Shown here piece after piece: positions 12,278-27,540 of a stretch of DNA of 27,540 nucleotides; the first letter of the stretch is position 1, and the number at the start of each line of letters is the position of its first letter. The stretch lies in the IMG/VR virus record IMGVR_UViG_2585427737_000003, one strand, 5' to 3'. This stretch comes from a virus. Its lineage: Duplodnaviria > Heunggongvirae > Uroviricota > Caudoviricetes. Made by a program: the position numbers and the translations under genes. Under the pieces are notes generated by a model. The model worked only from the letters and a program-made list of their open reading frames with translations, was not told where the DNA came from and searched no databases.

Positions 12278-12606
12278 CAGTTCACCACCTGTTCAAACTC
12301 TGCGCTGAACTCAACACGCAGCATACTGACCCGCGACGACCATTTTGCGCAGGTCACCTTTATCTGCCGCCACTCATAAGGCGGCGTCCACAGAAAGGAT
12401 TTCCAGCCCCCGTGCTCTTCCAGAAACGACTCCAGTACCGTGGCCTCCTCACGGGGGACAGAAAGCGTCACGCTGTACGTTTTCAGGTTGGCATTCAGCC
12501 CGGCAGGCGCTCGCTGGGAATAGCCATCACCAAAGCGCACCTTTCTTACAGAAGGGACCGAAGCCACATCCATACCGGGTTTCACTTTCCAGCGGAAGGT
12601 CTTCAT
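12277..12606 (-). CDS. M: Tail tip protein M
   Basis: 109 aa MKTFRWKVKPGMDVASVPSVRKVRFGDGYSQRAPAGLNANLKTYS..., matches lambda M. Confidence 0.9.
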   Translation of the reverse strand: MKTFRWKVKPGMDVASVPSVRKVRFGDGYSQRAPAGLNANLKTYSVTLSVPREEATVLESFLEEHGGWKSFLWTPPYEWRQIKVTCAKWSSRVSMLRVEFSAEFEQVVN

Positions 12607-15182
12607 CGTCCACCTCCGGAGAACAGGCCACCATCACGCATCTGTGTCTGAATTTCATCACGGGCACCCTTGCGGGCCATGTCATACACCGCCTTCAGAG
12701 CAGCCGGACCTATCTGCCCGTTCGTGCCGTCGTTGTTAATCACCACATGGTTATTCTGCTCAAACGTCCCGGACGCCTGCGACCGGCTGTCTGCCATGCT
12801 GCCCGGTGTACCGACATAACCGCCGGTGGCATAGCCGCGCATCAGGCGGTACAGGTTGCCGACACCAATCCGGCTGGTTGCCTCCTTCGTGAAGACAAAT
12901 TCACCACGGTGAACAATCCCCGCTGGCTCATATTTGCCGCCGGTTCCCGTAAATCCCCCGGTCGCAAAATGGAATTTCGCCGCAGCGGCCTGAATGGCTG
13001 TACCGCCTGACGCGGATGCTCCACCACTGGCAGCACCGCCAATGGCGCTGCCGATACTCCCGACAATCCCCACCATTGCCTGCTTAAGCAGAATTTCTGT
13101 CATCATGGACAGCACGGAACGGGTGAAGCTGCGCCAGTTCTGCTCACTGCCGGTCAGCATCGCCGCCATATTCTGCGCAATACCATCAAAGGTCTGCGCG
13201 GCTGCACTTTTAACCTGCGACATACTGTCCGTGGCGCTCTCTTCCCACTCACTCCAGCCGGACTTCAGGCCTGCCATCCAGCTCCCGCGAAGCTGGTCTT
13301 CAGCCGCCCAGGTCTTTTTCTGCTCTGACATGACGTTATTCAGCGCCAGAGGATTATCGCCATACTGTTCCTTCAGGCGCTGTTCTGTGGCTTCCCGCGC
13401 TGCCTGCCGGTCAGTCAGCCCCCGGCTTTTCGCATCAATGGCGGCCCGTTTTGCCCGTTGCTGCTGTGCGAATTTATCCGCCTGCTGCGCCAGCGCGTTC
13501 AGGCGCTCCTGATACGTAACCTTGTCGCCAAGTGCAGCCAGCTGGCGTTTGTACTCCAGCGTCTCATCTTTATGCGCCAGCAGGGATTTCTCCTGTGCGG
13601 ATAGCTGGCGACGTTGTGCCGCCTCCTCCAGTACCGCGAACTGATTTTCAGCCTTCCACAAATCCCGGCGCTGCTGGCTGATTTTCTCATTTGCTCCGGC
13701 ATGCTTCTCCAGCGTCCGGAGTTCTGCCTGAAGCGTCAGCAGGGCAGCATGAGCACTGTCTTCCTGACGATCGCCCGCAGACACTTTCACGCCGGACTGT
13801 TTCGGCTTTTTCAGCGTCGCTTCATAATCCTTTTTCGCCGCCGCCATCAGCGTGTTGTAATCCGCCTGCAGGATTTTCCCGTCTTTCAGTGCCTTGTTCA
13901 GTTCTTCCTGACGGGCGGTATATTTCTCCAGCGGCGTCTGCAGCCGTTCGTAAGCCTTCTGCGCCTCTTCGGTATATTTCAGCCGTGATGCCTCAGACTC
14001 GGCCCAGTCCTTTGCTGCCATCTCTCTGGCCTTTTCAAGATCGGCCTGCAACGTGGCGGCTGAAAGTCCAAGTTGCGCATTCGCTCTGTCCTCCCATGCT
14101 CCCCGGAGATTGGCACGAAATGCTGAGGTTTTACCGCGCCGGTGGCTCCGGCTCTGATACCACTGCCATTTTTTGTCCGCCTCATCAAAAGCCTTTTCTG
14201 CTTTCTCCAGCATTCCCTGGGCAGTGTCCGGGCGACCAATATCCAGCACCGAATCCCACATGGATTTGAATGCCCGTGCTGTCCTGTCTGCCCAGGTCTC
14301 CAGCGTGCCCATGTTCTCTTTCAGGCGGCGGGTCTGGTCATCAAACCCTTTCGTTGCGGCCTCGTTCGCCGCCTGCAATGCCCCGGCTTCATCTCCGGAA
14401 CGCTGCAACTGAGCAACATACGCAATCTGCTCCGCCGTCACGTTATGGAACTGACGTGCCATCGCTGTCAGTCCCGACGTCGGGTCTGTGGTCAGCTTCC
14501 CGAAGGCTTCAGCGACCTTGTCCACCTCCACGCCGGATGCAGAGGAGAAACGCGCCACACTCTGGCTGATCGCCTCAAACTGCTCACCACCACGCACACC
14601 GGCATTCACCAGCGCCGTCAGTGACTCGCTGGTCTGGTTAAACGTCAGCCCTGCCGCCTGCCCGGCTCTGGACAGGACCAGCATACGATCTGCCGTCAGT
14701 CCCGCCTGATTGCCGGAAAGGACCAGCGTTTTGTTGAAATCGGACAGGGTTGAGTTGCCCTGATACCAGGCATACGCCAGCGCACCGGTCGCCACCGCCA
14801 GCGAGGTGGCCCCCACCATCGGCAGGGTGATCGCACCGGCAAGCCCCCTGAACATGGGGATCATCCCGCCGAAGGAGTCCTTAACCTGACCCCCCTGTTG
14901 CAGCAGGATCAGCCACGGACTTTGCCCGCCTGCAAGCTGCGTGGCCACGTCGGTGAACTGTGCAGGCAGCATACGCATGGCGGCTTTATACTGTCCGACG
15001 GAAATCCCCGCTTTCTGTGCAGCCAGCGCCTGCCGGTTCATTGACTGTTCAACGACTGCCGCTGTTTTTTTCGCATCACTTTCCGTATCGGAAAAATGAC
15101 GCCTGACTCTGGCCATCTGCTCGTCAAATCTGGCCGCATCCAGACTCAAATCAACGACCAGATCGCCTACCGGTTCAGCCAT
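12603..15182 (-). CDS. H: Tail tape measure protein H
   Basis: 859 aa MAEPVGDLVVDLSLDAARFDEQMARVRRHFSDTESDAKK..., matches lambda H (which I recall as 853 aa). Confidence 0.95.
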   Translation of the reverse strand: MAEPVGDLVVDLSLDAARFDEQMARVRRHFSDTESDAKKTAAVVEQSMNRQALAAQKAGISVGQYKAAMRMLPAQFTDVATQLAGGQSPWLILLQQGGQVKDSFGGMIPMFRGLAGAITLPMVGATSLAVATGALAYAWYQGNSTLSDFNKTLVLSGNQAGLTADRMLVLSRAGQAAGLTFNQTSESLTALVNAGVRGGEQFEAISQSVARFSSASGVEVDKVAEAFGKLTTDPTSGLTAMARQFHNVTAEQIAYVAQLQRSGDEAGALQAANEAATKGFDDQTRRLKENMGTLETWADRTARAFKSMWDSVLDIGRPDTAQGMLEKAEKAFDEADKKWQWYQSRSHRRGKTSAFRANLRGAWEDRANAQLGLSAATLQADLEKAREMAAKDWAESEASRLKYTEEAQKAYERLQTPLEKYTARQEELNKALKDGKILQADYNTLMAAAKKDYEATLKKPKQSGVKVSAGDRQEDSAHAALLTLQAELRTLEKHAGANEKISQQRRDLWKAENQFAVLEEAAQRRQLSAQEKSLLAHKDETLEYKRQLAALGDKVTYQERLNALAQQADKFAQQQRAKRAAIDAKSRGLTDRQAAREATEQRLKEQYGDNPLALNNVMSEQKKTWAAEDQLRGSWMAGLKSGWSEWEESATDSMSQVKSAAAQTFDGIAQNMAAMLTGSEQNWRSFTRSVLSMMTEILLKQAMVGIVGSIGSAIGGAASGGASASGGTAIQAAAAKFHFATGGFTGTGGKYEPAGIVHRGEFVFTKEATSRIGVGNLYRLMRGYATGGYVGTPGSMADSRSQASGTFEQNNHVVINNDGTNGQIGPAALKAVYDMARKGARDEIQTQMRDGGLFSGGGR

Positions 15183-15615
15183 ACCGGACTCCTCCTGCGA
15201 TCCCTTCTGATACTGTCATCAGCATTACGTCATCCTCCGTCATGTCCGCCACATCCGGGGAAGCGGGGATAACTTCATTCCCGTCCGGGCCAAAGCGGAC
15301 GCCTCCGGCAAGCCCTGCCGCTTTCTGCATCAGCACATCATCTTCAGGCTCTTCGTCAGCCTCACGCCGGTTCAGCAAACTGAAATCCAGCGGATGCATA
15401 TCCGGATCGCTGAAAAACAGGCTGAGTACGGTGTACGTCAGCCCGGAAAAGTGCATATCCAGCAGAACATCATGAAAATAATGGGTACTGTAAAAGCGGT
15501 GCCAGTCGGCATACTCCGTGGATGACATCCCGGCAAGCATGGCGCGCCAGTCGGGTCGCCCCATCTCACGCGCCAGTTTCAGGGCAAAACTCAGCTCACC
15601 GTCGAACACTTTCCC
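15175..15615 (-). CDS. T: T segment of the G-T tail assembly chaperone (made only by -1 frameshift from G)
   Basis: T reading frame (V)FDGELSFALKLAREMGRPDWRAMLAGMSSTEYADWHRFY... matches lambda T; begins at the slippery heptamer. Confidence 0.8.
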   Translation of the reverse strand, partial: GKVFDGELSFALKLAREMGRPDWRAMLAGMSSTEYADWHRFYSTHYFHDVLLDMHFSGLTYTVLSLFFSDPDMHPLDFSLLNRREADEEPEDDVLMQKAAGLAGGVRFGPDGNEVIPASPDVADMTEDDVMLMTVSEGIAGGVRYG

Positions 15616-16011
15616 GCAGAAACAGGCTCTGCTGGCCCGGCGTCATCTGCCTGTTCAGGTGCATCATTCACAACAAACTCAGACATACCGGACAGACGCA
15701 TTACCACATTTTCAGCCTGAGCAATTGCCTCTGTGGGCCAGGTGGTAAGCACTTCCTGCTCAATTTGTTTAACGGCTTCATTCATGGACGGCATCTGCGT
15801 CTTCTGCGGATGGCTATGCCACAGGGACATCGCCACCAGAAACGCGCCGGTTCTGACGAGTCTTCCACACTAAACTGCCGATTGAGACTGACCCCGCCTG
15901 TTCTGCCTGTCGTTTCAGCAGGGCGAGATGCTCAATTCGCTGCAGGGCTGACAGTTCAGAAAGCGTGACGCTCACACCGTTATATTCAAATGATTCGGTT
16001 TTCAGGAACAT
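15591..16011 (-). pseudogene. G: Tail assembly chaperone G, interrupted (split into 65 aa and 81 aa ORFs by indels)
   Basis: N-terminal ORF MFLKTESFEYNGVSVTLSELSALQRIEHLALLKRQAEQA then leaves frame and stops at 15814; C-terminal ORF MAMSLWHSHPQKTQ...AGKCSTVS resumes in another frame; lambda G is a single 140 aa protein. Confidence 0.7.
15609..15615 (-). promoter_or_regulatory. G-T programmed -1 ribosomal frameshift slippery site (GGGAAAG on the coding strand)
   Basis: Heptamer gggaaag sits at the end of the G frame (..SAGKCSTVS stop) with the T frame continuing in -1. Confidence 0.75.
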
Positions 16012-16026
16012 CGCTGACTCTCCGGA

Positions 16027-16767
16027 TTAACTGTCGGTGACGGTGATTTCTGCAACCACAGCAAACTCACCATTACCGGATACAACCGGAATGTTGACCT
16101 TGCCTGCAGCAACACCTTTCACGGTGATGGTCATACCACTGACCGACACGGTGACTTTTGTTTTATCCGCAGACACCGCACGGAAGCTCTTGTCAGTTGC
16201 ACCCTCCGGCTGGAATGCCACGGTCAGCGTGGTGCTCTGCCCTTTCACCACCGAGGAGCTGGCAGGCGTCACAGTCATACCGGTTGCCGCCGTCACCGTA
16301 CTGCGATCTTCTGCCATTGACGGACGGCCCACATTGGTGACCTTCACCGTACGGGTGATCACTTCCTTCGCCGTCACCGCCTTACCGATACTGCTGACCC
16401 AGCCACGGAACACATCGACCGTGCCGTTCGGGAAGCGGATTTTATAGGCACGGGTATCGCCTTCATTAAACCACGCCAGCAGCGCCTGCTGCCCCTGCTC
16501 TCCGGGCATCCACGCCAGCGTGAAGCTGGTATCTCCGGCAGATTTCTGCCCCTGCCCGGTCGCAGTCCAGTCTGCATCTTCATCATCGAGATAGCTGTCG
16601 TCATAGGACTCAGCGGTCAGTTCGCCGGGCGTCAGGTCTTTAACTTTTGCCAGACGCGACCAGTCAACGTCTGAAAGCGGATTCGCATAAGGGTCACCGC
16701 TTCCCTTATAAACCCACAGGGTGGTCCCGGCACCTTTCACCGGCATTACAGGATTTGGTACAGGCAT
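16027..16767 (-). CDS. V: Major tail protein V
   Basis: [31 protein letters not shown]..., 246 aa from the ATG at 16767 (ORF track extends 10 codons upstream, into U); gagga RBS. Confidence 0.9.
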
Positions 16768-18121: not shown

Positions 18122-18508
18122 TTATTGCATTCTGGCCAGGCCGCGCTCTGTCATTTCGGCTGCCACACCGGCAGAGACACGAAACGCCGTTCCCGGCAGC
18201 ACAAATGCCACAGGTTCATCCCGCGTGGCGTGAAGTGCATCGGTATGCAGCGTCACCAGTGCCACAACCGTGACCAGAGCAGCCGTATCAGTCACGGTAT
18301 CCGGCTGCGCTGATACCACCTCATTTTCATGTCCGGTCAGCGCATTTTCCGGGCTGAGAGGGGTATCCTGATCGGCAGTGTCATCAAGCTCCTCTTCCAG
18401 CTCTGCCACACGGAGCGCCAGTTCTTCTTTCGTCCCCGTCAGGCTGACATCACGGTTCAGTTGCTCACCCAGCTCCTGAAGACGGGCAATCAGTTCATCT
18501 TTCGTCAT
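18122..18508 (-). CDS. FI: DNA-packaging / head assembly protein FI
   Basis: MTKDELIARLQELGEQLNRDVSLTGTKEELALRVAEL..., start taken at the ATG at 18508 preceded by ggagg. Confidence 0.85.
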   Translation of the reverse strand: MTKDELIARLQELGEQLNRDVSLTGTKEELALRVAELEEELDDTADQDTPLSPENALTGHENEVVSAQPDTVTDTAALVTVVALVTLHTDALHATRDEPVAFVLPGTAFRVSAGVAAEMTERGLARMQ

Positions 18509-26942: not shown

Positions 26943-27540
26943 CGTAAGCGACTCGTCAGAACCGTATTGATATTTACTGAGAGCTCAGATCAACTTTCCA
27001 GGGCAACAGATCGCGTACCCGGTTTGCCGGCCAGTCCTGGATATGTTCAATGACGTAACGCAGCCACTTTTCTGGCTCCACATTGTTCAGACGGCATGTG
27101 CCGATCAGCGAGTACAACACCGCCGCATGTTCACCACCGCTGTCGGAACCCGCGAACATCCAGTTTTTCCGGCCTACGGCCACTCCCCGTAAGGCGTTCT
27201 CTGCGATGTTGTTGTCGATTTCCACCCAGCCATTACTGCAGTACACGTTCAGTGCATCCCACTGTTTCAGCAGGTATGCGAACGCTTTTGCCGTATCTGA
27301 GTGACGCGACAGTGTTTTCATCTGTTGCTGTATCCAGTCATACAGTGACTGCATCAGTGGCGCGGCTCTGGCTTTTCTTGCCGCCAGACGCTGTTCTGCT
27401 GAACAGCCCCGGACCTCTGCCTCGATGGCATACAGTTCACCGATACGCTGCAGGGCTTCCGTGGTGATGTCGGTGGGCGCTCTTGCATGCACATCGTGGA
27501 TTTTTCTCCGGGCATGAGCCATACACGCGGCTTCCGTTAT
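26943..27540 (-). mobile_element. IS66-family insertion sequence, partial (outer end near 26943 with GTAAGCG terminus; continues beyond the window)
   Basis: IS66-family transposase C-terminus encoded on the minus strand; gtaagcg motif at 26943-26949 resembles the conserved IS66-family terminal repeat start. Confidence 0.7.
26974..27540 (-). CDS. IS66-family transposase (TnpC-like), C-terminal portion; N-terminus outside window
   Basis: ...[128 protein letters not shown]..., typical of IS66-family transposases; reading frame is open to the window edge. Confidence 0.75.

What the first reader, a model, noticed from the sequence alone, without database searches (positions are those of the whole stretch)
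15591..16011. Tail assembly chaperone G is broken by a dense cluster of substitutions and indels, while the G-T slippery site is intact
Lambda G is one 140 aa ORF. Here the G frame runs MFLKTESFEYNGVSVTLSELSALQRIEHLALLKRQAEQA and then goes out of frame to a stop at 15814, and the conserved C-terminal part (MAMSLWHSHPQ...AGKCSTVS) resumes in a different frame. The intervening ~50 nt carry several changes relative to the lambda sequence implied by the protein, including an apparent net 2 bp deletion. The rest of the module is nearly identical to lambda, so this is a localised lesion. G and the G-T fusion are required for tail assembly, so as written this prophage should not make functional tails. 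The GGGAAAG frameshift heptamer and T frame downstream are preserved.
Basis: partly seen in the sequence, partly recalled or inferred. Interest (0 to 1): 0.6.

Follow-up and report, generated by a model that had tools for sequence, protein, structure and literature searches.

The report
Broken phage gene G: assembly artefact
The lambda-type tail chaperone gene G really is split in two in this deposited contig, but the damaged stretch is a letter-by-letter computer blend of two normal versions of the gene, so it is almost certainly an assembly error and not a defective prophage.

Summary
In this contig (E. coli 6-319-05_S1_C2, JORD01000131.1) gene G is 421 nt instead of 423. Two 1-bp gaps 30 nt apart split it into 65-aa and 81-aa ORFs. 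The GGGAAAG slippery site and the T frame are intact.

The interpretation as a real lesion is not supported. Inside about 40-60 nt, every column where two natural G alleles differ (E. coli 602354/PhiR11 type and lambda type) carries the symbol that comes first in the order gap, A, C, G, T on the record's plus strand. That holds for 17 of 17 columns, including all four indel columns. Of 48 possible tie rules and 105 natural allele pairs, only this rule reproduces the patch exactly.

A second orphan patch in the tail-fibre gene (2845-2927) obeys the same rule at 27 of 27 differences, and two natural stf alleles reproduce it exactly.

The chimeric sequence was found in only two drafts. Both were assembled with MaSuRCA 2.3.2 in one project, from unrelated strains. 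All 89 natural G alleles collected are 423 nt.

Best explanation: a consensus tie between two lambdoid prophage alleles. Biological interest is low. The practical lesson is that this pipeline can create false frameshifts.

The parts
15814..16011 (-). 5' fragment of gene G as deposited (65-aa ORF). Residues 1-39 are G; the rest is out of frame up to the TAG at 15816-15814.
   Evidence: ORF list. Pfam PF06894 positions 1-41, E=8e-18. The exact protein occurs only as KEM15749.1 on this contig.
15591..15836 (-). 3' fragment of gene G in a different frame (81-aa ORF from GTG). It holds the conserved C-terminal two thirds of G and ends at the normal G stop, TGA 15593-15591.
   Evidence: ORF list. 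Pfam PF06894 positions 61-125, E=4.5e-26.
15847..15909 (-). Chimeric patch (consensus tie zone). Columns that differ between the two parent alleles span 15857-15893. The two single-base gaps lie at 15890/15891 and 15860/15861. The zone is bounded by sites 15910 and 15846, where the rule is not obeyed.
   Evidence: Alignments. Direction of differences. Exact reproduction from lambda-type x 602354-type alleles only under the order gap>T>G>C>A in gene orientation. 17/17 columns obey the rule inside the zone, against 15 obeyed and 13 not outside it.
15609..15615 (-). GGGAAAG slippery heptamer for the G to G-T -1 frameshift, intact.
   Evidence: Sequence read directly. Invariant in the alignment with lambda, PhiR11_1 and ev099.
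15175..15609 (-). T reading frame (144 codons), intact.
   Evidence: ORF list. Pfam PF06223, E=2e-14. Annotated as tail assembly protein T in relatives.
2845..2927 (-). Second chimeric patch, in the side tail-fibre gene (stf). It has 24 substitutions and three 1-bp gaps relative to the closest relative. It creates a stop at 2855-2857 that cuts about 94 codons off Stf (ORF 5974->2855 instead of ->2573).
   Evidence: 27/27 differences are in the rule direction, covering all six base-pair types. The best match in complete E. coli genomes is only 78%. The patch is reproduced exactly from the 602354-type and NCCP15648/FDAARGOS_1293-type stf alleles under the same single rule, and shuffled controls fail.

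Best explanation
The break in G is an in-silico artefact of consensus calling in the draft assembly, not a mutation.

The sequenced DNA contained two versions of the G linker region: one of the E. coli 602354/PhiR11 type (protein ...AGSSLNRQVSVEDLV...) and one of the lambda type (...AESDSNR(K/Q)FTVEDAI...). The most likely source is two co-resident lambdoid prophages. The assembler stacked the two versions in one layout.

Wherever they disagreed with equal support, the consensus took the first symbol in the order gap, A, C, G, T on the contig's plus strand. Under a unit-cost alignment the two alleles differ by two pairs of offsetting 1-nt indels. All four indel columns were resolved as 'gap', which gives a net loss of 2 nt and a false frameshift. 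The substitution columns alternate between the parents at single-base scale.

The same process blended two stf alleles at 2845-2927.

Shown: the chimeric composition, the single symbol order, the restriction to two drafts from one pipeline, and the assembler used. Inferred: that the tie arose between equally weighted super-reads in MaSuRCA's Celera consensus step, and that each real prophage copy has an intact 423-nt G.
For: (1) Composition. Within the 60-nt segment, 17 of 17 columns where the 602354-type and lambda-type alleles differ carry the rule's preferred symbol: 4 gaps, 8 columns won by the 602354 type, 5 won by lambda. A 3-way dynamic programme tested 48 rule variants (24 base orders x gap wins/loses) against 105 pairs of natural alleles. 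Only gap>T>G>C>A in gene orientation reproduces the window exactly. It does so only for lambda x 602354/PhiR11-type pairs, at a cost equal to the optimal edit distance (17/17, 16/16, 18/18).

(2) Independent patch, same rule. In stf, 27 of 27 differences from the nearest relative go in the same direction (one-sided 2^-27), and all six base-pair types are represented. The 83-nt patch is reproduced exactly from two natural stf alleles under that rule only. The 47 other rules fail, and 30 shuffles of the second parent cost >=106 or are impossible, against a cost of 49.

(3) The rest of the window is balanced: 85 substitutions in the rule direction and 77 against, with A/G 32 vs G/A 29 and C/T 29 vs T/C 26.

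(4) Outside the G patch the sequence follows one haplotype regardless of the rule.

(5) Distribution. All 89 natural G alleles collected are 423 nt; only this contig and one other draft are 421 nt. No complete E. coli genome has the patch: the best match is 94.4% and all subjects are 143 nt against the query's 141. The core 24-mer has no exact match in IMG/VR, JGI metagenomes or GTDB species genomes. The 65-aa ORF exists only in KEM15749.1 and KDX07804.1.

(6) The second carrier (E. coli 2-177-06_S4_C3, O104:H4 ST678) is an unrelated strain. Its prophage is only 97.6% identical and its flanking polymorphisms in G differ, yet the core is identical. In that contig 11 of 11 differences go in the rule direction.

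(7) Both genomes come from one project, assembled from 100-bp HiSeq reads with MaSuRCA 2.3.2 (super-reads plus Celera Assembler).

(8) E. coli genomes that have this G-T region carry a median of 2 and up to 8 copies, so co-resident alleles are usual.

(9) An intact G identical in protein to the window's, except for a normal 602354-type linker, exists in nature (P0123, Logan assembly of ERR9710236).
Against: No reads were available, so the artefact is inferred from the sequence pattern alone.

The second (lambda-type linker) G allele of this strain was not seen directly. A lambda-linker version of the window's G protein is not in the protein collection.

The stf reproduction uses an alignment of cost 49, where the optimum is 40.

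I did not examine the assembler's source code, so the tie-break order is deduced, not confirmed.

Finding the same core in two strains would also fit a real, locally circulating allele, if the symbol-order pattern were ignored.
Confidence: 0.93

Rival explanations
1. Real pseudogene. Patchy gene conversion (heteroduplex repair) between two co-resident lambdoid prophages produced a fine-scale mosaic G that lost one base at each of two sites. The allele then spread by recombination among prophages in the Tanzanian E. coli population.
For: The core is a mosaic of two natural alleles. It occurs in two unrelated strains from the same geographic study with different flanks. Prophage genes are often inactivated.
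Against: No repair process is known that would pick bases by the order gap>A>C>G>T of the deposited strand at 17/17 and 27/27 columns in two unrelated genes. The mosaic needs seven parent switches in about 40 nt. The sequence is absent from every other collection searched. The rest of the 24-kb late region shows no frame-breaking indels apart from the stf patch.
Confidence: 0.04
2. Raw sequencing error (miscalled or dropped bases in a low-quality stretch), not a blend of two alleles.
For: The draft was built from short reads, and the gaps are single bases.
Against: Every 'error' base equals the base of a known natural allele. The second gap is not in a homopolymer. An identical result appears in a second genome. 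Illumina consensus at normal depth does not accumulate 9 to 27 errors in under 90 nt.
Confidence: 0.02
3. A genuine, functional third G allele whose frame is restored during translation by an extra recoding event (+1 or -2).
For: G-T already uses programmed -1 frameshifting, and the heptamer is intact.
Against: The frame-shifted stretch reaches a stop at 15816-15814, and I saw no recoding signal there. All 89 natural alleles keep one 423-nt frame. The substitutions are synonymous or lambda-like only in the restored frame.
Confidence: 0.01

Closest known systems
Bacteriophage lambda G / G-T tail assembly chaperone (Pfam PF06894 + PF06223; -1 frameshift at GGGAAAG)
   Same: Same position between V and H, the same slippery heptamer and T frame, and 95.5% DNA identity to lambda G-T. 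Both fragments match PF06894.
   Different: The deposited sequence lacks 2 nt in the hypervariable linker (profile positions 42-60), so G is not a single 140-codon ORF. This difference is attributed to the assembly, not to the phage.
Consensus errors in collapsed repeats or paralogues in overlap-layout-consensus assemblies (here MaSuRCA super-reads passed to the Celera Assembler consensus)
   Same: Short orphan patches that blend two alleles, found only in drafts from one pipeline, in genes known to be multi-copy in E. coli genomes.
   Different: The strict symbol order (gap, A, C, G, T) that reproduces the patches exactly is deduced here. I found no published description of it and did not inspect the source code.
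The stf frameshift of laboratory lambda PaPa (orf-401/orf-314), a real one-base lesion in the side tail-fibre gene
   Same: A lambdoid tail-fibre gene split by a small indel. Lambda's record shows the two ORFs.
   Different: The PaPa lesion is a genuine, experimentally established mutation (my own knowledge). The stf truncation here (2855) lies in a 27/27 rule-biased chimeric patch and is an artefact.

Membership tests
Lambda-type tail assembly chaperone G/G-T | Sequence membership in Phage_TAC_2 (PF06894), followed by Phage_tail_T (PF06223) | tested here: met
   The fragments hit PF06894 at positions 1-41 (65 bits) and 61-125 (92 bits). T hits PF06223 (54 bits). All scores are above the curated cut-offs.
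Lambda-type tail assembly chaperone G/G-T | Gene order: major tail protein V, G, T, tape measure H | tested here: met
   ORFs and annotation of relatives.
Lambda-type tail assembly chaperone G/G-T | Slippery heptamer GGGAAAG near the 3' end of G, with T open in the -1 frame | tested here: met
   15615-15609 on the minus strand. The T frame 15609->15175 is open.
Lambda-type tail assembly chaperone G/G-T | One uninterrupted G ORF of about 140 codons | tested here: not met
   G is 421 nt, split into 65 + 81 aa. All 89 natural alleles are 423 nt. The failure is attributed to the assembly.
Assembly consensus artefact (tie between two stacked alleles) | The patch is an exact column-wise blend of two natural sequences under one fixed symbol order | tested here: met
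   G: 3 hits among 5,040 rule x pair combinations, all under one rule. stf: 1 of 48 rules works and shuffles fail.
Assembly consensus artefact (tie between two stacked alleles) | The bias is confined to the patches and absent elsewhere in the contig | tested here: met
   27/27 and 17/17 inside the patches, 85 vs 77 substitutions elsewhere. The V gene shows a weaker excess (21/27) that remains unresolved.
Assembly consensus artefact (tie between two stacked alleles) | Seen only in assemblies from the same software, and not in independent data | tested here: met
   Only two MaSuRCA 2.3.2 drafts carry it. There are no hits in complete genomes, IMG/VR, JGI metagenomes or GTDB genomes.
Assembly consensus artefact (tie between two stacked alleles) | No read supports the chimeric junctions, and reads resolve into two intact haplotypes | not testable with these tools
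Genuine prophage pseudogene | The lesion is reproducible in independent isolates or technologies, and the mutation spectrum is independent of the deposited strand's letter order | tested here: not met
   The exact 65-aa ORF is on one contig only, although two other colonies from the same stool sample are listed in the project's supplementary table. The spectrum is fully ordered by letter.

The most novel reading that the evidence does not exclude
The lesion is real. In that case a G pseudogene was created by fine-scale, patchy gene conversion between two co-resident lambdoid prophages whose linker alleles differ by offsetting 1-nt indels. It would then be circulating by recombination among E. 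coli prophages in one human population, an example of recombination between compatible alleles producing an incompatible, frameshifted hybrid.
Probability: 0.04. Interest if true: 0.4.

Novelty: not a real feature. Interest (0 to 1): 0.08.

Why it matters
Biologically it matters little. The prophage most likely has a normal G/G-T chaperone, so no conclusion about tail-less particles should be drawn.

Practically it is a useful warning. Public draft genomes made with this pipeline (240 E. coli genomes in this project alone) can contain short false frameshifts wherever two paralogous phage alleles were stacked. The frameshifts here were deposited as truncated proteins (KEM15749.1, KDX07804.1). 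A simple test flags them without reads: check whether the differences from the nearest relative all go down the order gap<A<C<G<T on the deposited strand. Pseudogene counts and 'defective prophage' calls based on such drafts would be inflated.

Tried and rejected
(a) Looking for an intact parent with the window's own 'QFS' linker. The restored protein is not in the 15-billion-protein collection, and the 24-mer is in no contig collection. The linker is therefore not a natural third allele.

(b) P0008, an intact G listed with 'longest contig 27540'. I suspected it was this contig, but it is an unrelated metagenome node of the same length.

(c) Adenine-directed mutagenesis (a diversity-generating retroelement) as the cause of the stf patch. 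Rejected, because many changes are C>T, G>T and C>G in gene orientation.

(d) Finding the second stf parent among alleles with the same flanks in IMG/VR. All 183 such alleles were of the first-parent type, and a first dynamic-programming pass over 69 candidates failed. The parent was then found as the L170/L296 allele family by eye and by BLAST.

(e) Using colonies from the same stool sample as a control. Exact look-ups of this contig's H and V proteins returned only this contig, so their G regions could not be read.

(f) A literature search for a published description of this tie-break behaviour found nothing relevant.

(g) An internal restart for the 81-aa fragment. From reading the sequence, I see no convincing ribosome-binding site upstream of the GTG/ATG at 15836/15830. 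This became moot once the artefact was established.

Full report
**What the window is**
An exact-sequence look-up of the 65-aa ORF identifies the window as contig JORD01000131.1 (27,540 bp) of the draft genome of Escherichia coli 6-319-05_S1_C2, GCA_000713025.1. It carries the late region of a lambda-like prophage on the minus strand. That region is 99.2% identical over 26.4 kb to prophages next to the bio operon in ETEC strains such as 602354. The contig ends in IS1 and IS66 transposase fragments.

**Checking the observation**
- Gene G starts at 16011 on the minus strand.
- The deposited sequence gives a 65-aa ORF (16011->15814) and an 81-aa ORF in another frame (15836->15591). They match Pfam PF06894 at profile positions 1-41 and 61-125.
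- Against lambda, PhiR11_1, ev099 and E. coli 602354, the G-T region is 861 nt instead of 863. Two single-base gaps lie at 15890/15891 and 15860/15861, inside a cluster of substitutions.
- GGGAAAG (15615-15609) and the T frame are intact.
The only amendment is that the closest relatives are E. coli prophages and not lambda itself (95.5%).

**How widespread is the lesion?**
- None of 5,426 complete E. coli genomes has it. The best match to the 141-nt region is 94.4%, and every subject is 143 nt.
- The 24-nt core CAATCGGCAGTTTAGTGTGGAAGA has no exact match in IMG/VR, JGI metagenomes or GTDB species genomes.
- All 89 natural G alleles I collected are 423 nt.
- In about 15 billion proteins the truncated ORF exists only twice: here, and in E. 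coli 2-177-06_S4_C3 (JNPZ01000019.1, locus L007).
- That second strain is unrelated (O104:H4 ST678 against O115:H5). Its prophage is only 97.6% identical and its flanking polymorphisms in G differ, yet the roughly 45-nt core with both gaps is identical.
- Both genomes belong to one project. [quoted passage not shown]

**Anatomy of the patch**
The core is a single-base-scale mosaic of two natural linker alleles. One is the 602354/PhiR11 type (GGGATCCAGTCTCAATCGACAGGTGAGCGTGGAAGATCTCGTC). The other is the lambda type (GGAGTCAGACAGCAACCGGAAGTTTACTGTGGAAGACGCCATC).

In a unit-cost alignment these alleles differ at 17 columns, four of them single-base indels that offset each other in pairs. At all 17 columns the window carries the symbol preferred under gap>T>G>C>A in gene orientation. 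On the plus strand of the deposited record this is simply the order gap, A, C, G, T. All four indel columns are resolved as gaps, which is the whole of the 'net 2-bp deletion'.

I tested this formally. A three-way dynamic programme asked whether the window's 60-nt segment can be generated as a tie-rule consensus of any two of 15 distinct natural segments, under each of 24 base orders with gaps winning or losing. That makes 5,040 combinations. Only three succeed. All three use that one rule, all pair lambda with a 602354/PhiR11-type allele, and each has a cost equal to the optimal edit distance.

Outside the patch, the window follows one haplotype whether or not the rule agrees (15 sites agree, 13 do not). 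This bounds the tie zone between 15846 and 15910.

**An independent second case in the same contig**
Comparison with E. coli 602354 showed one other place with frame-breaking single-base gaps, 2845-2927 in the side tail-fibre gene. It has 24 substitutions and three 1-bp gaps. A stop at 2855 removes about 94 codons.

This patch is also an orphan, with a best match of 78% in complete genomes. All 27 differences from the relative go down the same symbol order, and all six base-pair types are represented. The rest of the window is balanced, with 85 against 77 substitutions.

I found the second parent in a common natural stf allele family (E. coli NCCP15648 and FDAARGOS_1293). Together with the 602354-type allele it reproduces the 83-nt patch exactly, again only under this one rule of 48. 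Thirty shuffles of the second parent either fail or cost at least 106, against 49.

In the second draft, 11 of 11 differences in the G patch also go in the rule direction.

**Interpretation**
A strict preference order that follows the alphabet on the deposited strand, covers transitions, transversions and gaps, and appears in two unrelated genes and two unrelated genomes has no biological rationale. It is what an argmax over counts indexed '-', 'A', 'C', 'G', 'T' returns when two sequences have equal support.

MaSuRCA reduces reads to super-reads and passes them to the Celera consensus module (Zimin et al. 2013, cited; my knowledge of the design). Two alleles can then be represented by one equally weighted sequence each, which is the condition for systematic ties. 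This last step is inference, because I did not see the code or the reads.

Multiple lambdoid G-T copies per genome are the norm in E. coli (median 2, up to 8). A G protein identical to the window's, except for a normal 602354-type linker, exists in an independent sample (P0123, Logan ERR9710236). Each real copy in this strain therefore most likely has an intact 423-nt G.

**Rivals**
- *Real pseudogene made by patchy gene conversion.* It would explain the two-parent mosaic and its presence in two strains of one population. It does not explain the letter-ordered choice at 17/17 and 27/27 columns, the seven parent switches in about 40 nt, or the restriction to one pipeline. I give it about 4%.
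- *Plain sequencing error.* It does not explain why every aberrant base equals that of a known allele (about 2%).
- *A functional allele rescued by extra recoding.* It has no support (about 1%).

**Comparison with known systems**
The locus is an ordinary lambda-type G/G-T tail assembly chaperone module: PF06894 and PF06223, gene order V-G-T-H, and GGGAAAG. The only defining feature that fails is the single 140-codon ORF, and that failure belongs to the assembly.

The requirement of gpG and gpG-T for tail assembly, and the -1 frameshift at GGGAAAG, come from established work (Levin, Hendrix and Casjens 1993; Xu, Hendrix and Duda 2004, 2014). I cite these from my own knowledge; I did not re-read them here.

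**Verdict**
The interpretation as a biological lesion is not supported, and this is not a real feature of the genome. Interest is low for biology. There is a modest practical value as a recognisable signature of false frameshifts in drafts from this pipeline.

Noticed in passing
window 2845-2927 (stf, minus strand); ORF 5974->2855: The side tail-fibre gene is truncated by about 94 codons in a second orphan patch with 24 substitutions and three 1-bp gaps. The patch obeys the same gap<A<C<G<T rule at 27/27 differences and is reproduced exactly from two natural stf alleles. It is the same artefact as in G.
   Followed up: yes
window 16027-16767 (V) and 12603-15182 (H), minus strand: The exact V (246 aa) and H (859 aa) proteins of this contig occur on no other contig in the 15-billion-protein collection. 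In V, 21 of 27 differences from relatives go in the rule direction, and most are at third codon positions. Scattered single-site consensus ties between two collapsed prophage copies may therefore extend beyond the two obvious patches.
   Followed up: partly
L007 about 2660 (E. coli 2-177-06_S4_C3, JNPZ01000019.1): In the second draft, the terminase large-subunit gene is split (553 + 72 aa instead of 641) by a single-base gap with no surrounding substitutions. Whether this is real or another consensus tie is unknown.
   Followed up: no
window 48-551 (+) and 26974-27522 (-): The contig ends in fragments of IS1 and IS66 transposase genes. These are typical short-read contig breaks at multi-copy elements. 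The first 566 nt and the last roughly 600 nt do not match the 602354 prophage locus.
   Followed up: no
window about 18371-18377 (FI gene, minus strand): There is a 9-bp in-frame gap relative to E. coli 602354 and to the second draft (FI is 128 aa against 131 aa), within a cluster of about 18 substitutions. It is probably natural allelic variation, but I did not test it against the tie rule.
   Followed up: no
G linker, gene nt about 115-160, in loci L001-L093: Natural G alleles fall into at least six very different linker types (GSSLNRQVS, ESDSNRKFT, ESSGNLQVS, GGGDNLLVS, GSDSNRQVT and others), all keeping exactly 423 nt. The lambda and 602354 types align best with two pairs of offsetting 1-nt indels, so any blend of them is prone to frameshift.
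   Followed up: partly
window 584-1915 (+): A 443-aa ORF lies between the tail-fibre assembly gene and the contig end. In E. coli 602354 the corresponding gene is annotated as a sensor domain-containing diguanylate cyclase and lies between the tail genes and the bio-side chromosomal genes (bioB, bioA). It is possibly a prophage cargo gene.
   Followed up: no
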